Below are positions 19,868 to 63,814 of a stretch of DNA of 64,000 nucleotides, piece by piece. The notes beneath the pieces were generated by a model. It did not search any database. It was not told where the DNA came from and worked only from the letters and a program-made list of their open reading frames with translations. A program made the position numbers and the translations under genes. The stretch spans positions 2,982 to 66,981 of the forward strand of contig JAHJQX010000029.1 of NCBI GenBank assembly GCA_018818965.1, given 5' to 3'. Numbering within the stretch: position 1 is the first letter of the stretch; each line of letters opens with the position of its first letter. The stretch comes from Patescibacteria group bacterium. GTDB taxonomy: Bacteria; Patescibacteriota; JABMPQ01.

Positions 19868-20245
19868 CTACTCGCTCTTCCATAAACCATGCAAGTTACA
19901 ATAGGTTCGCGCCGCCACATCATTCGCCTGAACCATAAACTCCGCCTCCGGCTTCTCACCTGGTTTCAAATTCTGACGATAAACCAGCCCATCAACCAGA
20001 ATCTCTATCCATTCGATGTAATGATCGTCTTCCATCGGATGATCGACTGAGCCGACTTTTACTCTCACGCCAGTGTCAGTCTTCTCTATTACTGGCACGT
20101 GCTTCTCCACTGCTGCATCCTCGGTGTTCTCGGTTAGTAGCTTCATCGGCTGGCCGCAGCAAACTAGCTCACCTGCACCAGTATGCAACACCTCAACAAT
20201 ATTGCCACAAACTTCACATTTGTAGACTTGATTTGATTCGGTCAT
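19868..20245 (-). CDS. dfx: desulfoferrodoxin (2Fe superoxide reductase)
   Basis: N-terminal desulforedoxin CEVCGN...CCGQPM plus SOR centre (HVPVIE...H...C.LHGLW). Confidence 0.8.
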
Positions 20246-20272
20246 TTGTTTTTTGTTAATTTATTATTAAAA

Positions 20273-20686
20273 TTATTTTTTACGCCTGGCGCACTTCTTG
20301 CAGATACCATACAAGTTACATTCTGTCCGCTCCACCTTCCCCCAACATACTTTTTTTCGCACTGGCATATTGCCGGCTCGGCGCAAATCATAAATTGTCC
20401 CACACTTATCACAAATATAATGCCAATGTTCTCTAATACAGCCATCAAAATGACGCTCGGCATCGGTCGTATTTAGCTCCAGAGCATATTCCCTGTCCAC
20501 TAAATAATCTAGATTACGATAGACTGTGCCTAGACTAATATGGGGTAACTTGCGTCGGACATTATTATAAACTATCTCCGCTGTCGGGTGACAAGTTACT
20601 TTCTGTAAATAATCAAGAATAACCTGGCGTTGTTTGGTCAAACGATCTCCAGTTTGGTTGATTTCGGTTTTAATGTCTCGCTGCAT
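20273..20686 (-). CDS. Fur family transcriptional regulator, PerR-like
   Basis: Fur DNA-binding helix (TKQRQVILDYL), HxH and C-terminal CxxC...CxxC. Confidence 0.8.
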   Translation of the reverse strand: MQRDIKTEINQTGDRLTKQRQVILDYLQKVTCHPTAEIVYNNVRRKLPHISLGTVYRNLDYLVDREYALELNTTDAERHFDGCIREHWHYICDKCGTIYDLRRAGNMPVRKKVCWGKVERTECNLYGICKKCARRKK

Positions 20687-20776
20687 TATTAGGAATTATT
20701 ACTATTAATATATCACGCCCAAGAATAGTGTCAAGAGAATAATATTGGCAAAATACTCTCCTGCCTTCAGGTTTTT

Positions 20777-21955
20777 TCAATCCACCAAATGCTCTTCCCG
20801 CACCCGCGAGACTAGAGAGAAGATGACCGCCACGATCCCCAAGATTATCAGCGTATAATTAAGCGACTGATCAACTAACAAACCGACCAACGGATACATA
20901 AGCACCATGGTAAATTTGCGCAGCATTGATACCGAAGATAAGACAGTCGCTCGCTTCTCTGACGGTATATATTTATTAAGATAGCTAGAAAATAACGGTC
21001 GACGTCCCAGCCCAAATCCACCCGCTAAAATTATTACTACTATCACTAGTGGAATAAATTTCGTCAGTCCACCAATTATAAAGGCTACGCCCGTAATAAT
21101 CGAGCTGGCAAATATCAATCGCCGCTTGCCACCCAACCATTTTTCCATCCAACTATAGCCATTCATCACTAATATCTCACTGGCCACAATAACAGCGTGA
21201 ATAATGCCAAAGTAAATAATACTAACGCCAGCTTGGGTTAACATCGGCTGGTAAAGCCAAATGACGAAAAAAGCAATGGAATCGATCACTAGAAAATCGA
21301 GGGCTAAAATTTTAAGTATTCGATTGCGATAGAAAAATCCCACGCCCTCTCTGAGGATTTTCAGATAGCGCATTGATTCTACCTTTTTGTCCGTTCTGGG
21401 TTCTTTTAGAGTTAACCCAATCAAAAAAGCAATCATCATCGGGAAAAACTGTAGCGCCATCGGCATCTGCAGTCCCCAATGACTAGCTATCACACTACCA
21501 ATCGGCGCGGCCACCATTAATCCGCTCAGTTTGTAACTATCGGCGCGGCCAAATATTCTTTTTGATTGGTTACTCTCCTTAGTTTTCTTAAGAGTGTCAT
21601 AGACAAAAGCGTCTTCCGCTCCAGAAAACAAAGCCATTGATCCCGCCAATAGAAATTCACAGAAAAGGAAAAGGTAAATGTTGGGAGTAATAGTATAAAC
21701 ACTAAACGCCACGGCACTCACTAGCGCGGCCAGTGCCAAAGAGTGTTTGCGACCAAAGTAATCCGCCACTACTCCCGTTGGCACCTCCAGTAAAAAATTC
21801 CAGAGCATAAACCAAGCTTGAAGTAGCATTAACGTGGTGAAACTAATCTTTCCCCACTCGGTAAAGAAAGGTACCAGCACTCCGGCCATTAAACCAAAGC
21901 TGGAGAAAAATTTGAAAGCGTAGATTTTGGGGATGTTTGCTTTATAGGTAGTCAT
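20777..21955 (-). CDS. MFS transporter
   Basis: 392 aa, 12 predicted TM helices. Confidence 0.75.
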   Translation of the reverse strand: MTTYKANIPKIYAFKFFSSFGLMAGVLVPFFTEWGKISFTTLMLLQAWFMLWNFLLEVPTGVVADYFGRKHSLALAALVSAVAFSVYTITPNIYLFLFCEFLLAGSMALFSGAEDAFVYDTLKKTKESNQSKRIFGRADSYKLSGLMVAAPIGSVIASHWGLQMPMALQFFPMMIAFLIGLTLKEPRTDKKVESMRYLKILREGVGFFYRNRILKILALDFLVIDSIAFFVIWLYQPMLTQAGVSIIYFGIIHAVIVASEILVMNGYSWMEKWLGGKRRLIFASSIITGVAFIIGGLTKFIPLVIVVIILAGGFGLGRRPLFSSYLNKYIPSEKRATVLSSVSMLRKFTMVLMYPLVGLLVDQSLNYTLIILGIVAVIFSLVSRVREEHLVD

Positions 21956-21988
21956 GCTATTGCGTTTCGCTTAGTTTGATTTGATTCC

Positions 21989-22849
21989 TTATTCCTGACA
22001 GCGCGGACAGTAATGGGTACCACGACCTGCTATTTTTATTTTTTCAATTACGCTGCGTCGACACCGCTGGCATTTTTTGCCCGCTCGCTGATAAACTTTG
22101 AGTCGGCTGATAAAATTACCTTTATTGCCATCGGCATCAACGTAGTCATTGAAGGTGGTGCCGCGATATTTAATCGCTTGCTTGAGAATTATATTGCAGG
22201 AGTTGAATATTTTGCGCAACTCGGCTGAGCTTAATTTATTCACTGCTCGACTCGGCCGCACTCCCGCCCGGAAGCAAATTTCGTCAGCGTAAATATTTCC
22301 GATTCCGGCGATAAGTTTTTGATTTAATAAAACTGCTTTAAGGCTAGTTTTTTTACCGGCCATCACCTGCTGGAAATTTGTCCAAGTAAAACCTTTGGTA
22401 AGTGGCTCGATGCCAAATTTCTTGAGAACTTCTTGTAGCTCATTTTCATCCACCAACTTCATATAACCAAATTGGCGCAAGTCATTGAAAAAAAGCTGCG
22501 ACCTGTCAACGAAAGTAAAAATAATGTGCGAATATTTATTGGGCAGCTTATCAATCTGCGGCCAACCATGACCACCCGCAGTTACTTTACCTTGAGCCTG
22601 ATAAATTAATTGGCCCGTCATTTTAAGATGGATGAGAAGAAATTTCTCGCCTTTTTTTAATTCTAAAATGAGAAGCTTCCCGCGGCGGTTAATTTTGGTG
22701 AAAAAATTGCCGGTGAGAGTTTTATTAAGCGCCGTTTTACTGCCTTTGATGATTTTTGGCTTACACACCTGAATACGAGCGATTTTCTTGCCAACAATCT
22801 TACGCTGCAAATCACGTCTAATTGTCTCAACTTCGGGGAGCTCTGGCAT
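21989..22849 (-). CDS. mutM: formamidopyrimidine-DNA glycosylase
   Basis: MPELPEVE N-terminus (catalytic Pro2), H2TH, C-terminal CQRC...CPRC zinc finger. Confidence 0.9.
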   Translation of the reverse strand: MPELPEVETIRRDLQRKIVGKKIARIQVCKPKIIKGSKTALNKTLTGNFFTKINRRGKLLILELKKGEKFLLIHLKMTGQLIYQAQGKVTAGGHGWPQIDKLPNKYSHIIFTFVDRSQLFFNDLRQFGYMKLVDENELQEVLKKFGIEPLTKGFTWTNFQQVMAGKKTSLKAVLLNQKLIAGIGNIYADEICFRAGVRPSRAVNKLSSAELRKIFNSCNIILKQAIKYRGTTFNDYVDADGNKGNFISRLKVYQRAGKKCQRCRRSVIEKIKIAGRGTHYCPRCQE

Positions 22850-22850
22850 A
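22802..22850. repeat. direct repeat copy A (mutM 5' end, first 15 codons)
   Basis: ctgcaaatcacgtctaattgtctcAacttcggGgagctcTggcata. Matches 23655-23704 with 3 synonymous mismatches. Confidence 0.85.
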
Positions 22851-22922
22851 TTTTCAGTTTATTTCCCTCTATTTTAGCTTGTTTTAGACGAAAAGTAAGA
22901 GCTTTTTAATAAAAACGAAGTA

Positions 22923-22950
22923 TTGACAGCATCTGTTATTATAGTATAAT
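22923..22950 (+). promoter_or_regulatory. near-consensus sigma70 promoter TTGACA-N16-TATAAT inside the inserted segment, directed at ORF 23017
   Basis: Read directly. Followed by the perfect palindrome TTCCCTAAAGGGAA (22985-22998). Confidence 0.55.
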
Positions 22951-23016
22951 GTAAAGCTTGAAGGATACATGAACATTGCAAACTTTCCCTAAAGGGAAGA
23001 TCGGAATAAGAAAGAA

Positions 23017-23613
23017 ATGGAAAGACATTACAAAGATAGGCTTTTCTCTGATCATTCCTGGCATGTGCCCCCACAAGATTACGCTCAAATGAAGGACAAC
23101 ATGGTTCGCTCGTGCGCGGACGCCATGGTCTTACTAGTAACGGGATGGTGGATCTTTGCAAAGGTCTACGTCCTCCTGGGCAAGCGACAACAGCACCCCC
23201 ATCCCAACTGGTGGGTAGTTGGGGGAAAGATGTGGATGGGGCTGAGCTTCGTTGCGTCGGTTGTGAAAAACGTCGCAAAGGAGCTGAAACTCAATCTTGA
23301 TCCCTCAAGGTTCGAAAACCTCAACCGAGCCTACTCACTGGCTTGGGCAACGCGTCGAGAAGAGCCGGTTAATAACGGCTGTCACGATGTCTCCCATCTC
23401 CTGGTGGCAGAGATCAGTGCAGCGGAAGCCAGCCGGATCAAGCACAACAAGGAGTACAGCGAGGTGGCATGGGTAGAATTGAAGCTAGTGGCTTCTGGTC
23501 GACAGTACCATTCGTCCTTGCGCCGAATGGCCCGAGACGTGATCGAGTTCCGCCATGGCCCACTTCGCAAGACCCTCAAAATCTGGGTCGACTGGTTCAA
23601 GCAGCTCTTTTAA
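23017..23613 (+). CDS. hypothetical 198-aa protein on GC-rich inserted segment (possible degenerate Nudix-like fold)
   Basis: Long ORF with clearly higher GC and Trp/His/Arg-rich composition than the host genes. WWVVGGKMWMG...ELKLNL weakly Nudix-box-like but catalytic Glu missing. Confidence 0.45.
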   Translation: MERHYKDRLFSDHSWHVPPQDYAQMKDNMVRSCADAMVLLVTGWWIFAKVYVLLGKRQQHPHPNWWVVGGKMWMGLSFVASVVKNVAKELKLNLDPSRFENLNRAYSLAWATRREEPVNNGCHDVSHLLVAEISAAEASRIKHNKEYSEVAWVELKLVASGRQYHSSLRRMARDVIEFRHGPLRKTLKIWVDWFKQLF

Positions 23614-23654
23614 AAGAACCTTTTCAAAGTACCCTAGAGGTGCTTTTTTTTATT

Positions 23655-23704
23655 TCTACTGCAAATCACGTCTAATTGTCTCCACTTCGGGAAGCTCGGG
23701 CATA
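23655..23704. repeat. direct repeat copy B (second copy of the mutM 5' end)
   Basis: Reverse strand encodes MPELPEVETIRRDLQ again (CCC/CTT/GTG synonymous variants). Confidence 0.85.
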
Positions 23705-23727
23705 AAATTCTGTCTATTAGCTCACAT

Positions 23728-23807
23728 GAGGTTTGCTATAGTTGCCGAGTGAACCCGGCTTCGCCGGAGGCGGAGCTATGGTGAACGAGGTAACTATAGC
23801 AAACCTC
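23728..23807 (-). terminator. 16-bp perfect inverted repeat (GAGGTTTGCTATAGTT...AACTATAGCAAACCTC) with 48-nt loop between the ABC operon and mutM
   Basis: Exact reverse-complement arms. Inner CCGGC-TTC-GCCGG hairpin. Confidence 0.4.
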
Positions 23808-23815
23808 CCCCGCCC

Positions 23816-24979
23816 CTACTCCCACTTAAAAAACTTCGTCGCTAGCGCAAAAGCGATCACCATCCATACCAACAAGCCGATTATTTCTCCCCCCACATCC
23901 AGCAAGCCGCTACCGTCAATCATCACGGCCCGGATAGCATCAGCTAAATAAGTCAGTGGTAAGTATTCGGTAATAGTCTTAAGCCAGTCCGGCAAAACAT
24001 CGCGCGAGAAAAAGACGCCGGAGAGAAACATCATCGGCATCATGATGATATTTGACAGCGCCATAACGGTATTGTGCGTCTTACCAAAACCGGAAATAGT
24101 AAAGCCAACACTTAGAAATATAATACCGCCCAAGAAAGCCAGCAATAATACCAACAACGGACTACCGATTAGCTGCAAATCAAAAAACACGACCCCCAGC
24201 GTAACAATAATCGTGGTTTGAAGCACTGAGATAATCAAGCGAGTGAGTACCTGACTAAATATAATAGTAAATGGCTTCACTGGAGTCGCTAGTAGTCGCC
24301 GCAAGATACCTTTTTCCCGCCAAGAGACAATCGAAGCGGCCACTCCAATAACCCCCATCTGCATAATACTCATCGCCACAATGCCGGGGATAAGAAAATC
24401 AACAAAGGTGAGATTACGACTAGTAACTGGTTTGGATTCGAGAAAAAATAACGACTGAGAATTAGTTATCCCCTGCTCATATTGATGAAAAATTTCTTTA
24501 AGGATAGATGTCCCAATGGCAACCTTGCTTTCTTCTCCCTCATTATAATAGAGCTCAATATTAAGTGGTCCGGGAGCAGCCGGCACCTCAATTCCCGTCT
24601 CAGCCACAATTTTCTGATACGCAGCCGGCAGCCCTGATGTATCAAGTCGAGCAGTCGCTCCAAAAGACTCTGGTAATATCAACAATAGATCCCGATCGCC
24701 TGCCTCTAGTAATTTCTTTTCATCTTCAACTGAACCAGTTGATATCTCAAAAACGTCAGCCTGCTCAATAGACTCAACAAACTTACCAGATGCTTCATTT
24801 TTAGCTTCATCGGCAATACCAAGCTTCACCGCACTCATTTTTTCAAAATCCATAAATCCGAATATCACCATAATCATCACGGGTAAAAACAGACTAAAGA
24901 AAATTGCCTGCTTGTCGCGAAAAAACATTTTAATAGCAGAAAAAGTAATATTTTTTATGGCCACAATTGATTTATTCAT
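23816..24979 (-). CDS. ABC-2 type transporter permease
   Basis: 387 aa, N-terminal TM plus large extracytoplasmic domain plus C-terminal 5 TM. Confidence 0.75.
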   Translation of the reverse strand: MNKSIVAIKNITFSAIKMFFRDKQAIFFSLFLPVMIMVIFGFMDFEKMSAVKLGIADEAKNEASGKFVESIEQADVFEISTGSVEDEKKLLEAGDRDLLLILPESFGATARLDTSGLPAAYQKIVAETGIEVPAAPGPLNIELYYNEGEESKVAIGTSILKEIFHQYEQGITNSQSLFFLESKPVTSRNLTFVDFLIPGIVAMSIMQMGVIGVAASIVSWREKGILRRLLATPVKPFTIIFSQVLTRLIISVLQTTIIVTLGVVFFDLQLIGSPLLVLLLAFLGGIIFLSVGFTISGFGKTHNTVMALSNIIMMPMMFLSGVFFSRDVLPDWLKTITEYLPLTYLADAIRAVMIDGSGLLDVGGEIIGLLVWMVIAFALATKFFKWE

Positions 24980-24983
24980 ATTT

Positions 24984-25754
24984 TTATTTCTCCCTTAAAT
25001 TACGACCAGTTAAATCCAAAAAGACATCTTCCAGATTGGCTAACTTCTCCGCCTGCGCTTTTTTAAATCCTTTGGCCAGTAGATTATCAATTAATTTATC
25101 CGGCGTATCGAGAGCTATTATTTTCCCCTTATCAATAATAGCTACCCGATCACACAATATCTCCGCCTCATCCATATAATGAGTAGTAAGTACTACGGTT
25201 TTGCCCGTATCACGAATTTTCCCAATCAAGTCCCAGAGATGTCGCCGCGCCTGGGGATCTAAACCAGTGGTCGGCTCATCGAGAAATAGCACTTGCGGAT
25301 CATTTACTAAGGCTGAGGCAATCGAAAAACGCTGCTTTTGCCCACCTGACAAATGTTTAACATACGATTTACCTTTCTCGGACAACTCCACTTTCTCTAA
25401 CAACTCATCAGGATTAATTTTTCGCTGGTACAAATTACCGAAAAGCTTAAGCAACTCCTTTAAATTCAGGTAATCAAAAAATGAGGAGGATTGCAGCTGC
25501 ACACCAATTTGTGACTTTACATCATCCGGCTTCATATCAACATCAATTCCGGCTACTTGCACTTGGCCGTTGTCAATCTTGCGTAGTCCCTCGATCATCT
25601 CCAAGGTGGTGGTCTTCCCTGCTCCATTGGGACCAAGCAGGCCAAAGATCTCTCCTCGCTCAACCGAAAAAGAAACGTTATCGACGGCCTTGAGGTCACC
25701 GTATGTCTTGCGTAAATTTTCGACCTCGATTATTTTACCGTTAGTTTTTGTCAT
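24984..25754 (-). CDS. ABC transporter ATP-binding protein
   Basis: Walker A GPNGAGKTT, signature LSGGQKQR, Walker B. Confidence 0.9.
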   Translation of the reverse strand: MTKTNGKIIEVENLRKTYGDLKAVDNVSFSVERGEIFGLLGPNGAGKTTTLEMIEGLRKIDNGQVQVAGIDVDMKPDDVKSQIGVQLQSSSFFDYLNLKELLKLFGNLYQRKINPDELLEKVELSEKGKSYVKHLSGGQKQRFSIASALVNDPQVLFLDEPTTGLDPQARRHLWDLIGKIRDTGKTVVLTTHYMDEAEILCDRVAIIDKGKIIALDTPDKLIDNLLAKGFKKAQAEKLANLEDVFLDLTGRNLREK

Positions 25755-25814
25755 GAATATTGAATTAACAGATGGAATTATTCTACCGCATCCTCACAGA
25801 AAAACCAAATTTAC

Positions 25815-25862
25815 TTGACAGCAAATGCGGTCACTTGCTAACCTGTACCCTAGGTATAGGTA
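25815..25862 (+). promoter_or_regulatory. divergent promoter region with TTGACA and a TACC-N9-GGTA inverted repeat (TACCCTAGGTATAGGTA), candidate CsoR operator
   Basis: Resembles known CsoR operators (TACC...GGTA pseudo-palindromes) immediately upstream of csoR. Confidence 0.4.
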
Positions 25863-25883
25863 TTAATAAATTAACTTACATTA

Positions 25884-26156
25884 ATGACTGAGCAAAAAAA
25901 GAAAACGCTGACCAATTTCAAAAAAGCCCAGGGTCACATAGCTAAGATCTTGGAGATGCTCGAAGATGATGAGTATTGCATTGATATCATGCAGCAAAAC
26001 TTGGCGGCCATTGGCCTATTAAAATCAGCTCACCAAATGCTGATGGAAAATCATCTCAACACCTGTTTTAAAAAAGCGATGGGTACCAAAGACGGCGCCA
26101 AAAAAAGAGCGATGACTAAAGAAATATTACAGGTAACTAGATTATTCAACAAATAA
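25884..26156 (+). CDS. csoR: CsoR/RcnR family metal-sensing repressor
   Basis: 90 aa, DUF156 fold, YCIDIMQQ...H...C metal ligands. Confidence 0.75.
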   Translation: MTEQKKKTLTNFKKAQGHIAKILEMLEDDEYCIDIMQQNLAAIGLLKSAHQMLMENHLNTCFKKAMGTKDGAKKRAMTKEILQVTRLFNK

Positions 26157-26164
26157 AAAAATAG

Positions 26165-26689
26165 ATGAAAAAAACTTTTCCCATAATACTTTCGCTAGCA
26201 CTGCTAGCCACCACTGCCCTACTGGCTGGCTGTAGCAAAAACACGACGGAAAATACAAAAGGTCAACTCACAGAAGTGAATCAAAGCACTAAGGCAGCCA
26301 GTTTTTCTGGTACAGAGGGTGAGGCGGTAACAATAGAAGATAGTCAAATCGCAATAGATACCACCAAGCTACAAGGCACCACAGCTAATTACTACAACAC
26401 TGAACTATCCGATGGACGGACTGTCTACTTTTTTGTGGTCAAAGATAAAAATGGCACCTATCGGGCGGCGGCCAACGCTTGTCAAGTTTGCGCTGATTCT
26501 AAAGCAGGATTTCATCAAGAAGGTGACCAAATGGTCTGCAATACTTGCGGCAATGGTTATCCGTTAGAAAAAATCGCTACCGAAAAAGGTGGCTGTAATC
26601 CTGTCCCAATTAACCCCAATCTCAAAGTAGCTGATAGCAAAATAATTATTGAGCAATCAGACATCGAGCAAATAGCAGACTTTTTCTAA
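26165..26689 (+). CDS. lipoprotein with CxxC-x18-CxxC metal-binding module
   Basis: Lipobox LLAGC. CQVCADS...CNTCGNG. Confidence 0.6.
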   Translation: MKKTFPIILSLALLATTALLAGCSKNTTENTKGQLTEVNQSTKAASFSGTEGEAVTIEDSQIAIDTTKLQGTTANYYNTELSDGRTVYFFVVKDKNGTYRAAANACQVCADSKAGFHQEGDQMVCNTCGNGYPLEKIATEKGGCNPVPINPNLKVADSKIIIEQSDIEQIADFF

Positions 26690-26706
26690 AATTATCACTA
26701 TAAAAA

Positions 26707-28203
26707 ATGCTTAAAAAAATAAAATTTCAAATAGACGGCCTGCATTGTCAAAGCTGTAAAACCATTATTGAAACTGAAGTGGACGTCTTGCCCGGAGTAA
26801 AAGATATTAAAGTTGATTATCCCTCGGGAAAATGTCAGCTAGAATACGACGAGGAAAAGATATCTCAAGCGAAGATGTTTACAGCTATTGAGAAGTTAGG
26901 CTATAAAATCAAGCAAAAGGCTGCCACCAAAAATGATAGCTCCAAAAACAAATATAAAAATTATATCATCGCTGGCGTCTTGGTAGCACTTTTTGCCATT
27001 GGCTATCTAATTATTAAAGAGTTGGGGCTACTAGAAATATTGTCACGATTAAATGAAGAGCGACTCGGTTACGGATTAATCTTTTTGATTGGCCTCCTGG
27101 CGAGTTTTCACTGTGTTGGCATGTGCGGCGGACTCATAGTCACTTACTCCGCTAAACAGCAACCCAAGCCAGACAAGAAATTCAGCTTTTCCGGAGCCCA
27201 CCTGCAATACAATCTTGGCCGCCTTATTTCCTACACTACTATCGGTGCTATTTTAGGTGGCTTCGGATCTTTTTTTGCTATCAATCCCACCTTCACTGGC
27301 ACTATCACTTTAGTAGCCGGAGTCTTTATGGTGCTAATGGGGTTGTCTCTAACCACTAAGCACAAGTGGCTAGAAAAGATAAAGCTGCGCACCCCGACTT
27401 TTATCGCCCGCTTTTTATTCAACCAACGTCATAGTAAAAAACCTAAAGGGCCTTTCGTGATTGGTCTCCTCAATGGCTTCATGCCCTGTGGACCGCTGCA
27501 AGCGATGCAACTTTATGCTTTGGCCTCCGGCAGCATTGTCAGTGGGGCGCTCTCGATGGGCTTTTATGCCCTGGGCACTATCCCTCTCCTCTTTGGCTTC
27601 GGTAGTTTTATTTCTCTCATCAGTCAGGAACACGTCAAGAAAGTAATGAAGTTTTCTGGCATTATCGTAATCGCTCTAGGCATTATAATGTTTAATCGCG
27701 GACTAACTAACTTTGGCTACGGCTTTAGCGGTCTAATCCCCAGCAAGCAGCTTGGTGAAAAAGAATATCTGGTCAGCGGCGACGTCAAAGAATACCAGGC
27801 AGCTAATATGGAATTATCATACAGCGGTTATTCTCCTAATGTTCTCTATGTAAAAAAAGGTATTCCTGTCCGCTGGGTGATAAATGTAAAGCAAATGTCA
27901 GGCTGTACAGACGAAATCATTATGCCGGAGTATAATATAGATAAGAAACTACGAAAAGGAGAAAACGTGATTGAATTCACACCGCTTGAAGCCGGCGAGA
28001 TAAAATTTTCCTGCTGGATGCAAATGGTCTGGGGTAAGTTCATTGTCGTAGATGAAGAAGAAGAGCTGCCAGCGGCTAATGATTTGTCAGTCGAAGAAGT
28101 CAGTGATCAGCCTAGTAGCTCTTGTAGCGGTGACGGCGAGTGTGGTGGTAGCTGTGGTTCAACTTCTTGTGGCTGTGATGGTAGTCGAATTAGTACAGAA
28201 TAA
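26707..28203 (+). CDS. HMA-domain / polytopic permease (HCxGMCGG motif) / cupredoxin-like beta-domain fusion with Cys/Gly-rich C-terminal tail
   Basis: N-terminal GLHCQSC HMA. TM core FHCVGMCGG and CGPLQ. C-terminal SCSGDGECGGSCGSTSCGCDGS. Confidence 0.6.
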   Translation: MLKKIKFQIDGLHCQSCKTIIETEVDVLPGVKDIKVDYPSGKCQLEYDEEKISQAKMFTAIEKLGYKIKQKAATKNDSSKNKYKNYIIAGVLVALFAIGYLIIKELGLLEILSRLNEERLGYGLIFLIGLLASFHCVGMCGGLIVTYSAKQQPKPDKKFSFSGAHLQYNLGRLISYTTIGAILGGFGSFFAINPTFTGTITLVAGVFMVLMGLSLTTKHKWLEKIKLRTPTFIARFLFNQRHSKKPKGPFVIGLLNGFMPCGPLQAMQLYALASGSIVSGALSMGFYALGTIPLLFGFGSFISLISQEHVKKVMKFSGIIVIALGIIMFNRGLTNFGYGFSGLIPSKQLGEKEYLVSGDVKEYQAANMELSYSGYSPNVLYVKKGIPVRWVINVKQMSGCTDEIIMPEYNIDKKLRKGENVIEFTPLEAGEIKFSCWMQMVWGKFIVVDEEEELPAANDLSVEEVSDQPSSSCSGDGECGGSCGSTSCGCDGSRISTE

Positions 28204-28215
28204 TAAATATATTTT

Positions 28216-30408
28216 ATGAATAACAAAAAAGATAGTTACAAAATATCAGGCATGCACTGCACCGCTTGCTCTCTGACTATTGAAAAGACTTTGCAGAAGG
28301 AGCCAGGCATCAAAAAAGCTAACGTTAACTTTGCCACCGAAGAAGCCAATATTGAATACGAAGCTGATCAGATTGATGACAAAAAAATCGTCAGCCTAAT
28401 CAAAAAAGCCGGCTATGAAGCTATTAATCAGAAAGACAGTGCTAGCGGCGACAGCAAAGCCAAAGAGATAAAAAAGACACGTAATCTCTTTATTGTCAGT
28501 CTGCTTTTATCTTTGCCGGTTTTTGTACTAGCGATGATTTTAATGGAAAAGTCGCTGGCTGGCCGAGTGATCCAGATGATTCTAGCTGGCATTGTTCAAT
28601 TTTATATCGGCAGCCGTTTTTATAAGGGGGCTTACAATGCTCTGCGGAATAAGACAGCCAATATGGACACGCTGGTGGCTCTCGGCACCTCAGCCGCCTA
28701 TTTTTACAGTTTAGCCACTACTTTTTTGATTGCTGGCGAAGTATTTTACGAAACATCAGCTCTACTCATTACCTTTATTATGCTGGGTAAATGGCTAGAA
28801 GCCCGCGCTAAAGGCAAGACAGGCGAAGCTATCAAGAAACTACTAGGGCTGCAAGCGAAGACAGCTCGCGTAGCCAGAGACGGGGAAGAAAAAGATATTC
28901 CGATTACTGAAGTGATAGTCGGCGACATTGTTATTGTGCGCCCGGGTGAAAAAATCCCGGTCGACGGCAAAATTATCAACGGCGACTCCAGCGTAGATGA
29001 GTCAATGATCACCGGCGAGAGTATGCCAGTAGGTAAAAAAACTGGCGATTCAGTTATTGGCGCAACTTTGAACAAAAATGGTAGCTTCAAATTTACCGCC
29101 GAGAAAATCGGTCAAAATACCGTGCTGGCTCAGATTATTAAGATCGTCCACGAAGCTCAGTCTTCTAAAGCTCCAATTCAGAAATTTGCTGATAAAGTAT
29201 CTAGTTATTTTGTACCGACAGTGATGGGAATAGCTGTTATTACTTTCGGCTACTGGTATTTTATTGGGTCGTCTTCTTTCGTCACTGCCCTAATGACTTT
29301 TACAGCGGTGCTTGTGATCGCCTGCCCCTGCGCGCTTGGCCTAGCTACTCCAACAGCTATCATCGTCGGTACCGGTAAAGGTGCAGCCAATGGTATCTTG
29401 ATAAAAAGTGGTGAGGCACTAGAGATTGCTAACAAGATTCAGACGGTGGTACTAGATAAAACTGGTACTTTGACTAAAGGAGAGCCGGAGGTGACAGACA
29501 TTGTACAAATTACAAATAACAAATACCAAAATACAAACAAATTACAAATAACAGAAGAATTAAGAATTCTAAAGTTGGCGGCGTCAGTCGAAAGTAAGTC
29601 TGAACATCCATTGGCCGAGGCAATTATGCGAAAAGCTAAGGCTGACAAAATGAAACTAGCTGAAGTACAAGATTTTGCCGCAGTGACTGGTCACGGGGTG
29701 AAAGGGACAATTAACGATAAGCAAGTTTTAATAGGCACAGATAAATTGATGAGCAAGTTTGATATTAATGTTGCAGATGATCTAGTGACTCAGAAAAATA
29801 AATTAGAGAGTGAAGGGAAAACGGTAATGATTGTAGCGGTGGACAGTGATGTTGCCGGCCTAATCGCCGTAGCTGATACAATCAAAGACACATCGCGCGA
29901 AGCGATAGCTGCGCTACGCGAGATAGGTATTAAGACAATAATGATCACTGGAGATAACCAGCGGACGGCGGCGGCGATCGCTGAACAGGTTGGAATCGAC
30001 GAGGTGCGAGCGCAAGTTTTACCACAAGATAAAGCGGCGGCCGTGAAGTCACTACAAGGAGAGGGTGAGAAAGTAGCGATGGTCGGTGATGGTATTAATG
30101 ATGCTCCAGCGCTGGCTCAGTCGGATCTGGGTATCGCCATGGGAGCCGGTACAGATGTAGCCATTGAGACGGGAGAGATCGTATTAATAAAAGATGATCT
30201 ACGCGATGTGGCCCGAGCAATCAAGCTCAGCCAGCAGACCATGAATAAAATTAAGCAAAATATGTTCTGGGCGCTATTTTATAATAGCGTTGGTATTCCA
30301 ATCGCAGCGCTCGGGCTTCTACGCGCTGAATTTGCTGGACTAGCGATGGCGATGAGTAGCGTGTCGGTTGTATTAAATTCGTTATTACTGAAGAAAAAGA
30401 AACTCTAA
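28216..30408 (+). CDS. copA: copper-translocating P1B-type ATPase
   Basis: HMA GMHCTAC, CPC motif, [15 protein letters not shown]. Confidence 0.9.
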
Positions 30409-63079: not shown

Positions 63080-63814
63080 TTACTTCCCGCGCGCCAACAC
63101 CAGCCCCCAAATTTTTCGCGGCTTGGCTTTATCAATTTCCTTGGCACATTCCTCCAAAGTCGCACTGGTAGTACAAATATCATCAATAATAAAAATAGTT
63201 TTACCCCGCAAAATAGCAGTCTTCTCTAGCTGAAAAGCACCCTTGATATTTTTACGCCTTTTGATTGGATCTAGCTTGGCTTGGGCAGGTGTGCTCTTAA
63301 TTCTGACTAACACATCATCTCGCACTGTAAATTTAGCTCTTTTATTCAACTCCTGCGCCAACAAAGCAGTCTGATTAAACCCTCGCTGACGTTGGCGCTG
63401 ACGATAAAGCGGCACGGGTACGAAAATAACGTCTTGCCAATCCACCTGATGGCGACTCAACCAAACCTTTAGTCCGGCGTGCAATATCGTCGCTAGCGGC
63501 CGTGACATATCCCGCACAAACTTATACTTGAGAGCATGCACCGCCTGTCGCAACAACTTATCCTCATAAGAAGCAGCTGCCACAATACCGGTCATTTTCG
63601 AAGTAACTCGACACTGGTCGCAAAATGAGCCATCGTCCGAAATACATCCACAACGGGGGCAAGCCAGCTTTTTGTTAATTTCAATTTCCGACAGACAAGA
63701 AGAACAAACCCATTCCCCTTCCCAGAGACAACCAATGCATTTAATCGGAAATATAATATCCAGGATAAACTGCCAAATTTTACTTATTCCCTCCCACATA
63801 AATAAATATATCAA
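63080..63814 (-). CDS. comF: ComF family protein (phosphoribosyltransferase domain with N-terminal Cys4 zinc finger)
   Basis: CIGC...CSSC / CPRC...CDQC. C-terminal PRTase motif IFIIDDICTTSAT. Confidence 0.8.
   Translation of the reverse strand: MIYLFMWEGISKIWQFILDIIFPIKCIGCLWEGEWVCSSCLSEIEINKKLACPRCGCISDDGSFCDQCRVTSKMTGIVAAASYEDKLLRQAVHALKYKFVRDMSRPLATILHAGLKVWLSRHQVDWQDVIFVPVPLYRQRQRQRGFNQTALLAQELNKRAKFTVRDDVLVRIKSTPAQAKLDPIKRRKNIKGAFQLEKTAILRGKTIFIIDDICTTSATLEECAKEIDKAKPRKIWGLVLARGK

What the first reader, a model, noticed from the sequence alone, without database searches (positions are those of the whole stretch)
22802..23704. GC-rich 0.8-kb cassette inserted at the 5' end of mutM, flanked by 47-bp direct repeats that duplicate the first 15 mutM codons with synonymous-only differences
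Copies at 22802-22850 and 23655-23704 both encode MPELPEVETIRRDLQ on the reverse strand. The three mismatches are all third-position synonymous (CCA/CCC, CTC/CTT, GTT/GTG). Integrative elements that target the 5' end of a protein gene carry a replacement gene start, and this is the pattern they leave. Between the repeats lie a near-consensus TTGACA-N16-TATAAT promoter and a perfect palindrome TTCCCTAAAGGGAA (possible operator). A 198-aa ORF follows whose GC content and amino-acid composition (W/H/R-rich) are foreign to this AT-rich genome, ending in a T8 run. No integrase is present, so this is either a remnant or a minimal mobilised cassette. The ORF may be a degenerate Nudix-fold protein.
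Basis: seen in the sequence. Interest (0 to 1): 0.8.

Follow-up and report, generated by a model that had tools for sequence, protein, structure and literature searches.

The report
Nudix gene insertion scar beside mutM
A foreign-looking Nudix hydrolase gene was spliced in front of the DNA-repair gene mutM in a small group of Parcubacteria, leaving a dead 15-codon copy of the mutM start; this is an old recombination scar, not an active mobile element.

Summary
A 46-nt direct repeat (22805-22850 and 23659-23704, 43/46 identical) brackets a complete transcription unit: a consensus promoter, a 198-aa Nudix ORF and a terminator. The ORF's GC3 of 0.64 is the highest of 53 ORFs in the window.

Relatives show which state came first. 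Two outgroup lineages have the ABC permease stop codon 4 or 74 nt from the mutM ATG, which is an empty site. The closest relative, L001, has the same relic, the same junctions and the same hairpin. L007 has the cassette but no relic. More distant L002 and L017 have a divergent mutM/Nudix pair and no repeat.

The two mutM starts differ only synonymously (6/6 in L001, P~1e-4). That points to two functional mutM alleles rather than a decayed tandem duplication. The window's Nudix is 35% identical to L001's but 50% to L017's, while the flanks are 80-95% identical at DNA level. The transcribed part was therefore swapped.

No integrase, viral copy or near-identical cassette turned up anywhere.

Best reading: acquisition by mutM-anchored homologous plus illegitimate recombination, followed by an allele swap and gene conversion. 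The integrative-element interpretation is only partly supported. Interest is modest.

The parts
21989..22849 (-). mutM/fpg, the full-length live gene (286 aa)
   Evidence: ORF list. Pfam Fapy_DNA_glyco 2.5e-32, H2TH 4.1e-23, zf-FPG_IleRS 3.9e-10. NCBI names it a bifunctional formamidopyrimidine glycosylase/AP lyase.
22805..22850 (-). Left copy of the 46-nt repeat: codons 1-15 of the live mutM plus 1 nt upstream
   Evidence: Its first 20 nt carry the GAG-CTC haplotype otherwise seen only in the relic copies, which indicates gene conversion.
22851..22922 (.). AT-rich spacer between the mutM ATG and the Nudix -35 box. It holds the motif AAGCTAAAATAG (- strand, 22869-22880) that occurs only in Nudix-bearing genomes.
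   Evidence: About 77% identical to L001. The motif is present in L001, L007, L002 and L017 and absent upstream of mutM in the empty-site genomes.
22923..22950 (+). Nudix promoter, TTGACA-16-TATAAT. The -10 region is the left breakpoint of the allele swap.
   Evidence: 12/12 match. Conserved in L001, L007, L002 and L017. On the mutM side of it the window resembles L001; on the ORF side it resembles L002/L017.
22951..23016 (+). 5' UTR of the Nudix gene, L002/L017 type. Contains a 6+6 inverted repeat at 22985-22998 and lacks a well-placed Shine-Dalgarno sequence.
   Evidence: Read by eye from the sequences, the relatives have GGAGG-like sites 6-8 nt before the ATG.
23017..23613 (+). 198-aa Nudix-fold ORF resembling GDP-mannose mannosyl hydrolase, with a degenerate Nudix box (GGKMWMGLSFVASVVKNVAKELKL) and an 8-aa insertion
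   Evidence: Pfam NUDIX. Family alignment. The family profile matches PDB GDPMH at 3e-15. AlphaFold2 pLDDT 83.6, and Foldseek best hits 2i8t/1rya with target TM 0.75-0.82. GC3 0.64.
23626..23654 (+). Intrinsic terminator: stem-loop 23626-23646 plus a T run. The T run is the right breakpoint of the allele swap.
   Evidence: Alignment to L001 jumps from about 25-50% to about 90-95% identity at 23646.
23656..23704 (-). Relic mutM start: ATG at 23703-23701, 15 codons, TAG at 23658-23656. This is the right copy of the repeat (23659-23704).
   Evidence: The orthologous relic in L001 (3832-3885) has the same junction to the T run.
23705..23815 (-). Upstream region of the relic: 23 nt identical to L001, then an 80-nt hairpin (23728-23807, 28-nt arms), then the end of the permease gene
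   Evidence: Found only in the window and in L001/L004. Not similar to the upstream region of the live copy. No Rfam match.
23816..25754 (-). ABC-2 exporter operon (permease 23816-24979, ATPase 24984-25754). In empty-site relatives it runs straight into mutM.
   Evidence: Pfam ABC2_membrane_3 1.2e-44. Synteny in L001, L007, L008-L011 and L013.

Best explanation
This is a fixed gene acquisition with a recombination scar.

A self-contained Nudix hydrolase transcription unit (promoter, ORF, terminator), together with the roughly 70 nt that now precede mutM, entered the gap between an ABC-2 exporter operon and mutM. This happened in the common ancestor of a small Parcubacteria clade.

The incoming DNA came from a lineage in which Nudix and mutM are divergent neighbours, as in L002 and L017. 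It paired with the resident chromosome through the highly conserved start of mutM. Its far end was joined illegitimately at about codon 15-17 of the resident gene. The alternative is that a circularised fragment integrated by a single crossover in those codons.

The resident gene's first 15 codons, still attached to their old upstream region and hairpin, were left behind as a dead stub. The live gene now uses the start that came with the cassette.

Two later events followed in the window's lineage:
- The transcribed part of the cassette (22951-23645) was exchanged for a different Nudix allele, with breakpoints in the conserved -10 region and the terminator T run.
- The stub and the live start exchanged sequence by gene conversion.

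Shown: the direction of change (empty sites), the shared junctions, the allele swap, the purely synonymous differences, and the conversion tract.
Inferred: the recombination mechanism, and which of the two copies was resident.

The Nudix protein is a diverged member of a family related to GDP-sugar hydrolases. Its substrate is unknown, and in this genome its catalytic motif and ribosome-binding site are weakened.
For: (1) Empty sites. L008-L011 (mutM 83% aa, four assemblies) read permease-TAG-AAAT-ATG-mutM. L013 (74%) has a 74-nt spacer.

(2) The occupied genomes (window, L001, L007) form a clade. The permease 3' end is about 90% nt identical among them and about 80% to L008/L013.

(3) L001 has the same relic, hairpin, T-run junction and promoter. 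L004, a separate public assembly record, is 100% identical to it.

(4) L001's two copies differ at 6 sites in codons 2-14, all synonymous (P~1e-4). The window's differ at 3 of 3 (P~0.011). This is expected if both copies spent most of their divergence as working gene starts in different lineages. The repeat stops at the ATG, and the two upstream regions are unrelated.

(5) L002 and L017 (mutM 63%) carry a divergent mutM/Nudix pair with the homologous promoter and no second mutM start.

(6) Nudix identities:
- window-L001 35%
- window-L007 37%
- window-L002 46%
- window-L017 50.5%, with the same N- and C-termini
- L001-L007 67%
The flanks are 80% (mutM side) and 93-97% (relic side) identical at DNA level. 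The window's 5' UTR matches L002/L017, while the promoter-to-mutM side matches L001.

(7) Window live-copy nt 1-20 equal the L001 relic rather than the L001/L007 live copies. mutM itself is mosaic, at 94-96% versus 62-70% identity along the gene.

(8) The cassette's distal end (L007 TCGCGGAAAAT, L002 GCTGGAAAGA) resembles mutM codons 15-17 (CAGCGGAAGAT). This is a candidate microhomology at the joint (read by eye).

(9) No integrase, no viral or phage match, and no protein more than 50% identical in the 1.84 billion 50%-identity cluster representatives.

(10) Homology-facilitated illegitimate recombination is an established route for foreign DNA with one-sided homology (PMC3240628; PMC122324 and PMC122325 as cited in PMC5361080).
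Against: - The mechanism is inferred from its product only.
- The microhomology at the joint is short, and it cannot be told apart from the cassette's own end sequence.
- No genome with the predicted pre-insertion state (permease-hairpin-mutM) was found.
- It is unresolved whether L007, which lacks the relic, is a deletion derivative or an older state.
- The relic and its upstream region with the hairpin are more conserved between the window and L001 (93-97%) than the neighbouring coding DNA (85-92%). The three differences between the orthologous relics are all synonymous (P~0.012). This hints at constraint or continuing conversion.
- All five mutM-adjacent Nudix genes keep GC3 of 0.54-0.64 in AT-rich hosts despite deep divergence. 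A single old acquisition does not explain this.
- Only a handful of relatives were available, and most contigs are short.
Confidence: 0.55

Rival explanations
1. Site-specific integrative cassette. A minimal element whose attachment site is mutM codons 1-15 is integrated by a recombinase supplied in trans, and it brings a replacement gene start, as SXT/R391 elements do at prfC.
For: - Direct repeats bracket the unit exactly.
- The live mutM start and upstream region are cassette-linked.
- Composition is foreign.
- Two different Nudix alleles occupy the same frame in two species.
- Empty sites exist.
Against: - No integrase in the cassette or among 20 ORFs of the window.
- L007, L002 and L017 have the cassette beside mutM without repeats.
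- The junctions in the window and L001 are homologous base for base, so they were inherited and not made twice.
- The allele-swap breakpoints lie inside the repeats' span, at the -10 box and the T run, not at the repeats.
- The cassette is absent from viral contigs.
- No protein more than 50% identical to the window's Nudix was found.
Confidence: 0.12
2. Recombinase-free mobile cassette. The unit pops out and in by RecA-dependent crossover between the two mutM starts. It spreads between species because the mutM start is conserved enough to serve as a portable homology arm.
For: - Gene conversion between the two copies shows that they do recombine.
- The cassette is next to the mutM start in five genomes of two clades, always with the same promoter.
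- The GC-rich signature persists in all five.
- A ComFC-like protein (DZR_2 plus Pribosyltran, 63080-63814) hints at DNA uptake. That reading rests on my own knowledge of ComF architecture.
Against: - 46 nt at 82-93% identity is a poor substrate for homologous recombination.
- No recent transfer is visible: the nearest Nudix is 50% identical.
- Repeats are absent in three of the five occupied genomes.
- No circle or polymorphism within a population has been shown.
Confidence: 0.12
3. The relic and hairpin are kept because they work. They could be a translated 15-aa leader ORF or a transcription or termination signal between the ABC operon and mutM. This reading does not exclude the insertion history.
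For: - 93-97% identity between the window and L001 across 23659-23807, above the coding neighbours.
- The ATG and 23 nt upstream are identical.
- The differences between the orthologous relics are all synonymous (P~0.012).
- The hairpin folds at -44 kcal/mol, z = -2.2.
Against: - L007 lacks both elements.
- Codons 15-17 have decayed differently: TAG in the window, TGG TGG in L001.
- No promoter-like or Shine-Dalgarno signal was detected.
- The substitutions that separate the window and L001 in the hairpin arms are not compensated. L001 has one extra arm mismatch (arm sequences, paired by eye).
- Gene conversion from the live copy explains the synonymous pattern.
- There is no Rfam match.
Confidence: 0.1
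4. Assembly artefact, or a simple in-place tandem duplication followed by decay.
For: Short repeats can mislead assemblers, and the source is a metagenome-assembled genome.
Against: - The copies differ at three sites.
- The same architecture, with homologous junctions, occurs in a different species from other samples, held as two separate public assembly records.
- A duplication in place would start with identical copies and decay at random positions, not only at synonymous ones.
- The material between the copies is compositionally foreign.
Confidence: 0.02

Closest known systems
Homology-facilitated illegitimate recombination (Acinetobacter, S. pneumoniae, P. stutzeri, E. coli; PMC3240628, PMC122324, PMC122325)
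   Same: Foreign DNA with homology on one side only is anchored by that homology and joined illegitimately at the other end. The cassette here always adjoins the conserved mutM start, and its other end lands in different places: inside mutM, at the permease stop codon, or next to truB.
   Different: That process is known from experiments. Here it is only inferred from the product. The joint fell inside the anchor gene, so a 15-codon duplicate was left rather than a deletion.
Orphan gene fragments left by sequential displacement in T6SS effector-immunity and Rhs loci (PMC5361080)
   Same: A conserved gene part serves as the recombination anchor, incoming modules displace older ones, and relics of the earlier state remain next door. 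Different alleles sit in the same frame in related strains.
   Different: That case involves toxin/immunity genes and 3' relics. Here a housekeeping repair gene supplies the anchor, the relic is a 5' stub, and the cargo is a single Nudix gene.
[quoted passage not shown]
   Same: An insertion at the start of a protein gene, bounded by direct repeats, where the inserted DNA supplies the sequence that now precedes the gene.
   Different: SXT is about 100 kb, encodes its own tyrosine recombinase and Xis, and excises as a circle. Here the unit is 0.85 kb with one gene, has no recombinase, and shows no evidence of excision.
GDP-mannose mannosyl hydrolase (NudD/Gmm; PDB 1rya, 2i8t)
   Same: It is the best sequence-profile match (3e-15) and the best fold match. 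Both lack the canonical REUXEE glutamates in the Nudix box.
   Different: NCBIfam scores are far below the cut-off. In the profile alignment, the position of the enzyme's His124 (catalytic base by my recollection of the literature) is aligned to Tyr. The window protein has lost further motif residues.

Membership tests
Integrase-type integrative element at the 5' end of a gene (SXT/prfC type) | Encodes, or is linked to, a site-specific recombinase | tested here: not met
   The cassette holds a single Nudix ORF. 20 mid-size ORFs of the window are housekeeping genes with no recombinase domains.
Integrase-type integrative element at the 5' end of a gene (SXT/prfC type) | Direct repeats (att core) at both ends of the insert | tested here: met
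   46-nt repeat, 43/46 identical.
Integrase-type integrative element at the 5' end of a gene (SXT/prfC type) | The same element bounded by the same repeats in independent hosts | tested here: not met
   L001 shares its junctions by descent. L007, L002 and L017 carry the cassette beside mutM without a second mutM start.
Integrase-type integrative element at the 5' end of a gene (SXT/prfC type) | Excised circular form with attP | not testable with these tools
   This needs the reads of the source metagenome.
Homology-facilitated illegitimate recombination product | Homology to the recipient on one side of the foreign DNA only | tested here: met
   In all five occupied genomes the cassette adjoins the mutM start. 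The other side differs: relic, permease stop codon, or orf101/truB.
Homology-facilitated illegitimate recombination product | Microhomology at the illegitimate joint | tested here: inconclusive
   mutM codons 15-17 (CAGCGGAAGAT) resemble the cassette ends TCGCGGAAAAT and GCTGGAAAGA. They cannot be separated from the cassette's own sequence.
Homology-facilitated illegitimate recombination product | The inserted DNA is absent from the unmodified recipient | tested here: met
   Empty sites in L008-L011 and L013. The ORF is a compositional outlier.
Nudix hydrolase superfamily (PF00293) | Nudix fold | tested here: met
   Pfam 25.9 bits against a 21.1-bit cut-off. AlphaFold2 pLDDT 83.6, and Foldseek hits to Nudix structures at E 3e-9.
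Nudix hydrolase superfamily (PF00293) | Nudix box GX5EX7REUXEEXGU | tested here: not met
   The family consensus is GGRMxPGESFxEAAxRNxxRELGL. The window has GGKMWMGLSFVASVVKNVAKELKL, with only the last Glu kept.
GDP-mannose mannosyl hydrolase (NF011963) | Score above the NCBIfam cut-off (146 bits) | tested here: not met
   The window protein has no hit. Relatives score 18-43 bits.
MutT 8-oxo-dGTP diphosphatase (TIGR00586) | Score above the cut-off (97.9 bits) | tested here: not met
   The window protein has no hit. L001's Nudix scores 22.8 bits.
Integron gene cassette | Promoterless ORF followed by an attC hairpin inside the cassette | tested here: not met
   The cassette has its own consensus promoter and an ordinary terminator. 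The 80-nt hairpin lies outside the repeat and occurs once.

The most novel reading that the evidence does not exclude
The mutM-adjacent Nudix units could be a family of recombinase-free mobile gene cassettes of Parcubacteria. On this reading they carry the ultra-conserved start of a host repair gene as a portable homology arm. They would enter by RecA-dependent crossover or one-sided homology after DNA uptake, leave through the resulting direct repeats, and be exchanged repeatedly between species. That would also explain why all five keep a GC-rich signature.
Probability: 0.12. Interest if true: 0.65.

Novelty: new member of a known kind. Interest (0 to 1): 0.3.

Why it matters
It is a clean, datable example of how ultra-small Parcubacteria (CPR) genomes gain and swap single genes without any mobile-element machinery. 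The gain uses a conserved gene start as the recombination handle and leaves a small scar.

The site now has an empty state, an occupied state with the scar, an occupied state without it, and two different alleles in the same frame. That makes it a useful marker locus for studying recombination and DNA uptake in uncultured bacteria.

It also warns annotators in three ways:
- The 15-codon stub is not a gene start.
- The deposited Nudix start (Met25) is probably wrong.
- This Nudix copy may be enzymatically impaired.

Tried and rejected
- Phage records (blastn) and IMG/VR viral contigs gave no match, so there is no phage link.
- Rfam, for the whole window and for the region at relaxed threshold, found nothing for the hairpin or the UTR.
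- The single-sequence structure model was useless (pLDDT 45). It was replaced by an alignment-based model.
- The word-indexed protein search with the ORF found only the ORF itself. The exhaustive search was needed.
- The metagenome scan with the Nudix alignment gave one AT-rich relative in another context (L014) and no further mutM-linked copies.
- Further copies of the hairpin or of the relic's upstream region were sought in the window and all loci. They occur only in the window and in L001/L004.
- A hidden second mutM start in L002 was sought and not found.
- Homology between the two upstream regions beyond the ATG was tested and not found (p>0.2). The idea that the relic stems from an older Nudix cassette was therefore dropped.
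- The palindrome as an operator was rejected: it is imperfect, at chance level, and not conserved.
- An integron attC reading of the hairpin was rejected: it lies outside the repeat, occurs once, and the cassette has its own promoter.
- MutT identity of the Nudix was rejected on NCBIfam scores.
- The last look-up (L018/L019) had only 32 nt upstream of mutM and was uninformative.
Full report
**1. What is in the sequence**

The repeat is real. It spans 46 nt at 22805-22850 and 23659-23704, with 43 of 46 positions identical and the first 24 nt identical. No comparable match occurred in 100 shuffles.

On the - strand both copies read MPELPEVETIRRDLQ.
- The left copy is the start of a complete 286-aa Fpg/MutM carrying all three Pfam domains.
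- The right copy runs straight into TAG (23658-23656).
- The three mismatches are third-position and synonymous (P~0.011 under random substitution).

Between the copies lies a full transcription unit on the + strand:
- TTGACA-16-TATAAT at 22923-22950, a 12/12 match
- a 66-nt leader
- a 198-codon ORF (23017-23613)
- a stem-loop at 23626-23646 followed by a T run

The ORF has GC 0.533 and GC3 0.64. The 53 ORFs of the window average GC3 0.40 (sd 0.057), and this ORF is the most extreme.

The 'perfect palindrome' at 22985-22998 is really 6+6 nt around an AA centre. It is at chance level and is conserved in no relative.

The source is a Patescibacteria/Parcubacteria metagenome-assembled genome. The window is core chromosome: it holds genes for SecY, ribosomal protein L2, EF-Tu and tRNAs.

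**2. The protein**

Pfam NUDIX matches above its cut-off (E 1.1e-5). The word-indexed search found only the protein itself. An exhaustive HMMER search found 365 cluster representatives at E<=1e-3, the best at 48% identity.

The family consensus is GGRMxPGESFxEAAxRNxxRELGL. This Nudix box already lacks two of the canonical glutamates. The window protein is further degraded (GGKMWMGLSFVASVVKNVAKELKL) and has an 8-aa insertion.

The family profile matches E. coli GDP-mannose mannosyl hydrolase best (3e-15). An alignment-based AlphaFold2 model (pLDDT 83.6) has the same enzyme as its best fold match (target TM 0.75-0.82).

NCBIfam scores are far below the cut-offs for that enzyme and for MutT. The fold is therefore settled, but the substrate is not.

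The window gene also lacks the Shine-Dalgarno sequence its relatives have. NCBI annotates it from Met25, although homologs align from Met1.

**3. Relatives give the direction of change**

| Locus | mutM aa identity to window | State of the site |
|---|---|---|
| L001 (Parcubacteria MAG) | 84% | Same layout: permease, 80-nt hairpin, short mutM start (MPELPEVETIRRDLWWK*), terminator, Nudix, promoter, mutM |
| L004 (separate public assembly record) | same organism as L001 | 100% identical to L001 over 2.7 kb |
| L008-L011 (four assemblies) | 83% | Empty: permease-TAG-AAAT-ATG-mutM |
| L013 | 74% | Empty: 74-nt spacer |
| L007 | 79% | Nudix between permease and mutM, but no hairpin and no second mutM start; the permease stop codon abuts the Nudix terminator |
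| L002 and L017 | 63% | mutM and Nudix as divergent neighbours with the homologous promoter, other genes beyond, no second mutM start |
| L012, L015, L016 | 79%, 62%, 60% | Other upstream genes, no Nudix |

The 3' part of the permease gene is about 90% nt identical among the window, L001 and L007, and about 80% to L008 and L013. The occupied genomes therefore form a clade, and the empty state is the outgroup state. The finding is a true insertion, and it is old enough to be shared by species whose mutM genes are about 80% identical.

**4. The two mutM starts come from two working genes**

In L001 the two copies are only 82% identical. All six differences in codons 2-14 are synonymous (P~1e-4). 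A duplicate made in place would begin identical and then decay at random positions.

The repeat ends exactly at the ATG, and the two upstream regions are unrelated (p>0.2). This is what one expects when two diverged alleles are compared and only the coding part is conserved.

The stretch upstream of the live copy carries the motif AAGCTAAAATAG. That motif is found only in Nudix-bearing genomes, so the live start and its upstream region belong with the cassette.

In the window the first 20 nt of the live copy carry the GAG-CTC haplotype, otherwise seen only in the relics. The L001 and L007 live copies have GAA-TTA. The copies have therefore exchanged sequence by gene conversion, which explains why the window pair is 93% identical.

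**5. The cargo was swapped**

DNA identity between the window and L001:
- 85% over 3.9 kb on the ABC side, ending at the T run (23646)
- 80% on the mutM side, ending at the -10 box (22950)
- no detectable DNA homology between those points, apart from one 44-nt motif

Nudix protein identities:
- window-L001 35%
- window-L007 37%
- L001-L007 67%
- window-L002 46%
- window-L017 50.5%, with the same N-terminus (MERHY) and almost the same C-terminal tail

The window's leader matches L002/L017, while the promoter-to-mutM side matches L001. The window's cassette is thus a chimera. Its transcribed part (22951-23645) was replaced by an allele of the L002/L017 type, with crossovers in the conserved -10 region and at the terminator T run.

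mutM itself is mosaic between the window and L001, at 94-96% over about 180 nt and 62-70% elsewhere. Recombination between lineages is evidently common at this locus.

**6. Mechanism**

The product is what one-sided homologous recombination gives: resident upstream region plus 15 codons, then foreign cassette, then the foreign mutM start running into the gene. An incoming fragment 'cassette end - Nudix - promoter - mutM start' is anchored by the mutM start. Its free end is joined illegitimately inside the resident gene. This is homology-facilitated illegitimate recombination (PMC3240628; PMC122324 and PMC122325 as cited in PMC5361080).

The cassette's distal end resembles mutM codons 15-17. 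This could be the microhomology at the joint, but it is not provable.

A circularised fragment integrating by a single crossover would give the same product, and I cannot separate the two routes.

A ComFC-like protein at 63080-63814 is compatible with DNA uptake. That reading rests on my own knowledge of ComF architecture.

It is open whether L007 lost the relic by deletion or represents another state.

**7. Why not an integrative element**

- No recombinase was found in the cassette or among 20 mid-size ORFs of the window.
- No copy was found in phage records or viral contigs.
- No protein more than 50% identical to the window's Nudix was found, so no recent movement is visible.
- Three of the five occupied genomes lack the repeat.
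- The junctions in the window and L001 are the same by descent.
- The swap breakpoints are not at the repeats.

The resemblance to SXT at prfC (PMC2654960) is one of outcome, not of machinery. An integron reading fails because the cassette has its own promoter and no attC.

**8. What stays unexplained**

- All five mutM-linked Nudix genes keep GC3 of 0.54-0.64 in hosts with GC3 of 0.33-0.49. Family members elsewhere (L005, L006, L014) have host-like GC3. Repeated import, or GC-biased conversion at a recombination-prone site, are untested ideas.
- The relic, its 23-nt upstream stretch and the hairpin are 93-97% identical between the window and L001. The orthologous relics differ only synonymously (P~0.012). 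Yet codons 15-17 have decayed, and L007 lacks the whole block. A function for the relic or hairpin is possible but unsupported. There is no Rfam match, and the substitutions in the hairpin arms are not compensated (arm sequences, paired by eye).

**9. Verdict**

The integrative-element mechanism is not supported.

This is a new example of a known process, namely gene gain and allele exchange by recombination anchored on a conserved gene, with a relic left behind. It is a useful marker locus for recombination in uncultured ultra-small bacteria, and of modest general interest (0.3).

The most novel reading still open is a recombinase-free cassette family that uses the mutM start as a portable homology arm. 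I give it about 0.12.

Noticed in passing
window 22085-22264 (mutM nt ~586-765): mutM is mosaic. This tract is 94-96% identical to L001 but 66-81% identical to L007, while mutM nt 46-180 are only 62-70% identical to L001. It looks like a recombination tract inside the gene.
   Followed up: partly
window 23728-23807: An 80-nt GC-rich hairpin with 28-nt arms lies between the permease stop codon and the relic. It is present only in the window and in L001/L004, occurs once, has no Rfam match, and the arm differences between the window and L001 are not compensated.
   Followed up: partly
window 19868-30408: The locus lies in an oxidative-stress and metal cluster: desulfoferrodoxin, a Fur-like regulator, an MFS transporter, mutM, a CsoR-like repressor, an FtrD-like protein, an HMA/DsbD/cupredoxin protein and a P-type ATPase. 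The labels come from synteny with the Pfam annotations of L007. L002 has SOD, glutaredoxin, Ham1 and a second Nudix near its mutM.
   Followed up: no
window 63080-63814: An ORF with DZR_2 and Pribosyltran domains. To my knowledge this is the architecture of the competence protein ComFC, which would fit DNA uptake by this organism.
   Followed up: no
L002 1622-1927: A second GC-rich ORF of 101 aa (GC3 0.62, no Pfam hit on record) directly follows the Nudix gene. In that genome the GC-rich island is therefore 1.1 kb and holds two genes.
   Followed up: no
window 23017-23088: The deposited annotation starts the Nudix protein at Met25 (174 aa). Homologs in L017 and L002 align from Met1 (MERHY...). 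The window gene lacks the GGAGG-like ribosome-binding site seen 6-8 nt before the ATG in L001, L002, L007 and L017.
   Followed up: partly
L018 1-33 and L019 1-34: Two independent assemblies of a mutM that is 67% identical both break 32-33 nt upstream of the ATG. This may be coincidence, or it may be a sign of a repeat or polymorphism at the same site.
   Followed up: no
L006 380-1438: P0003 is a 352-aa protein made of two tandem Nudix domains of this family. It lies next to a HAD hydrolase gene and has its own TTGACA promoter.
   Followed up: no
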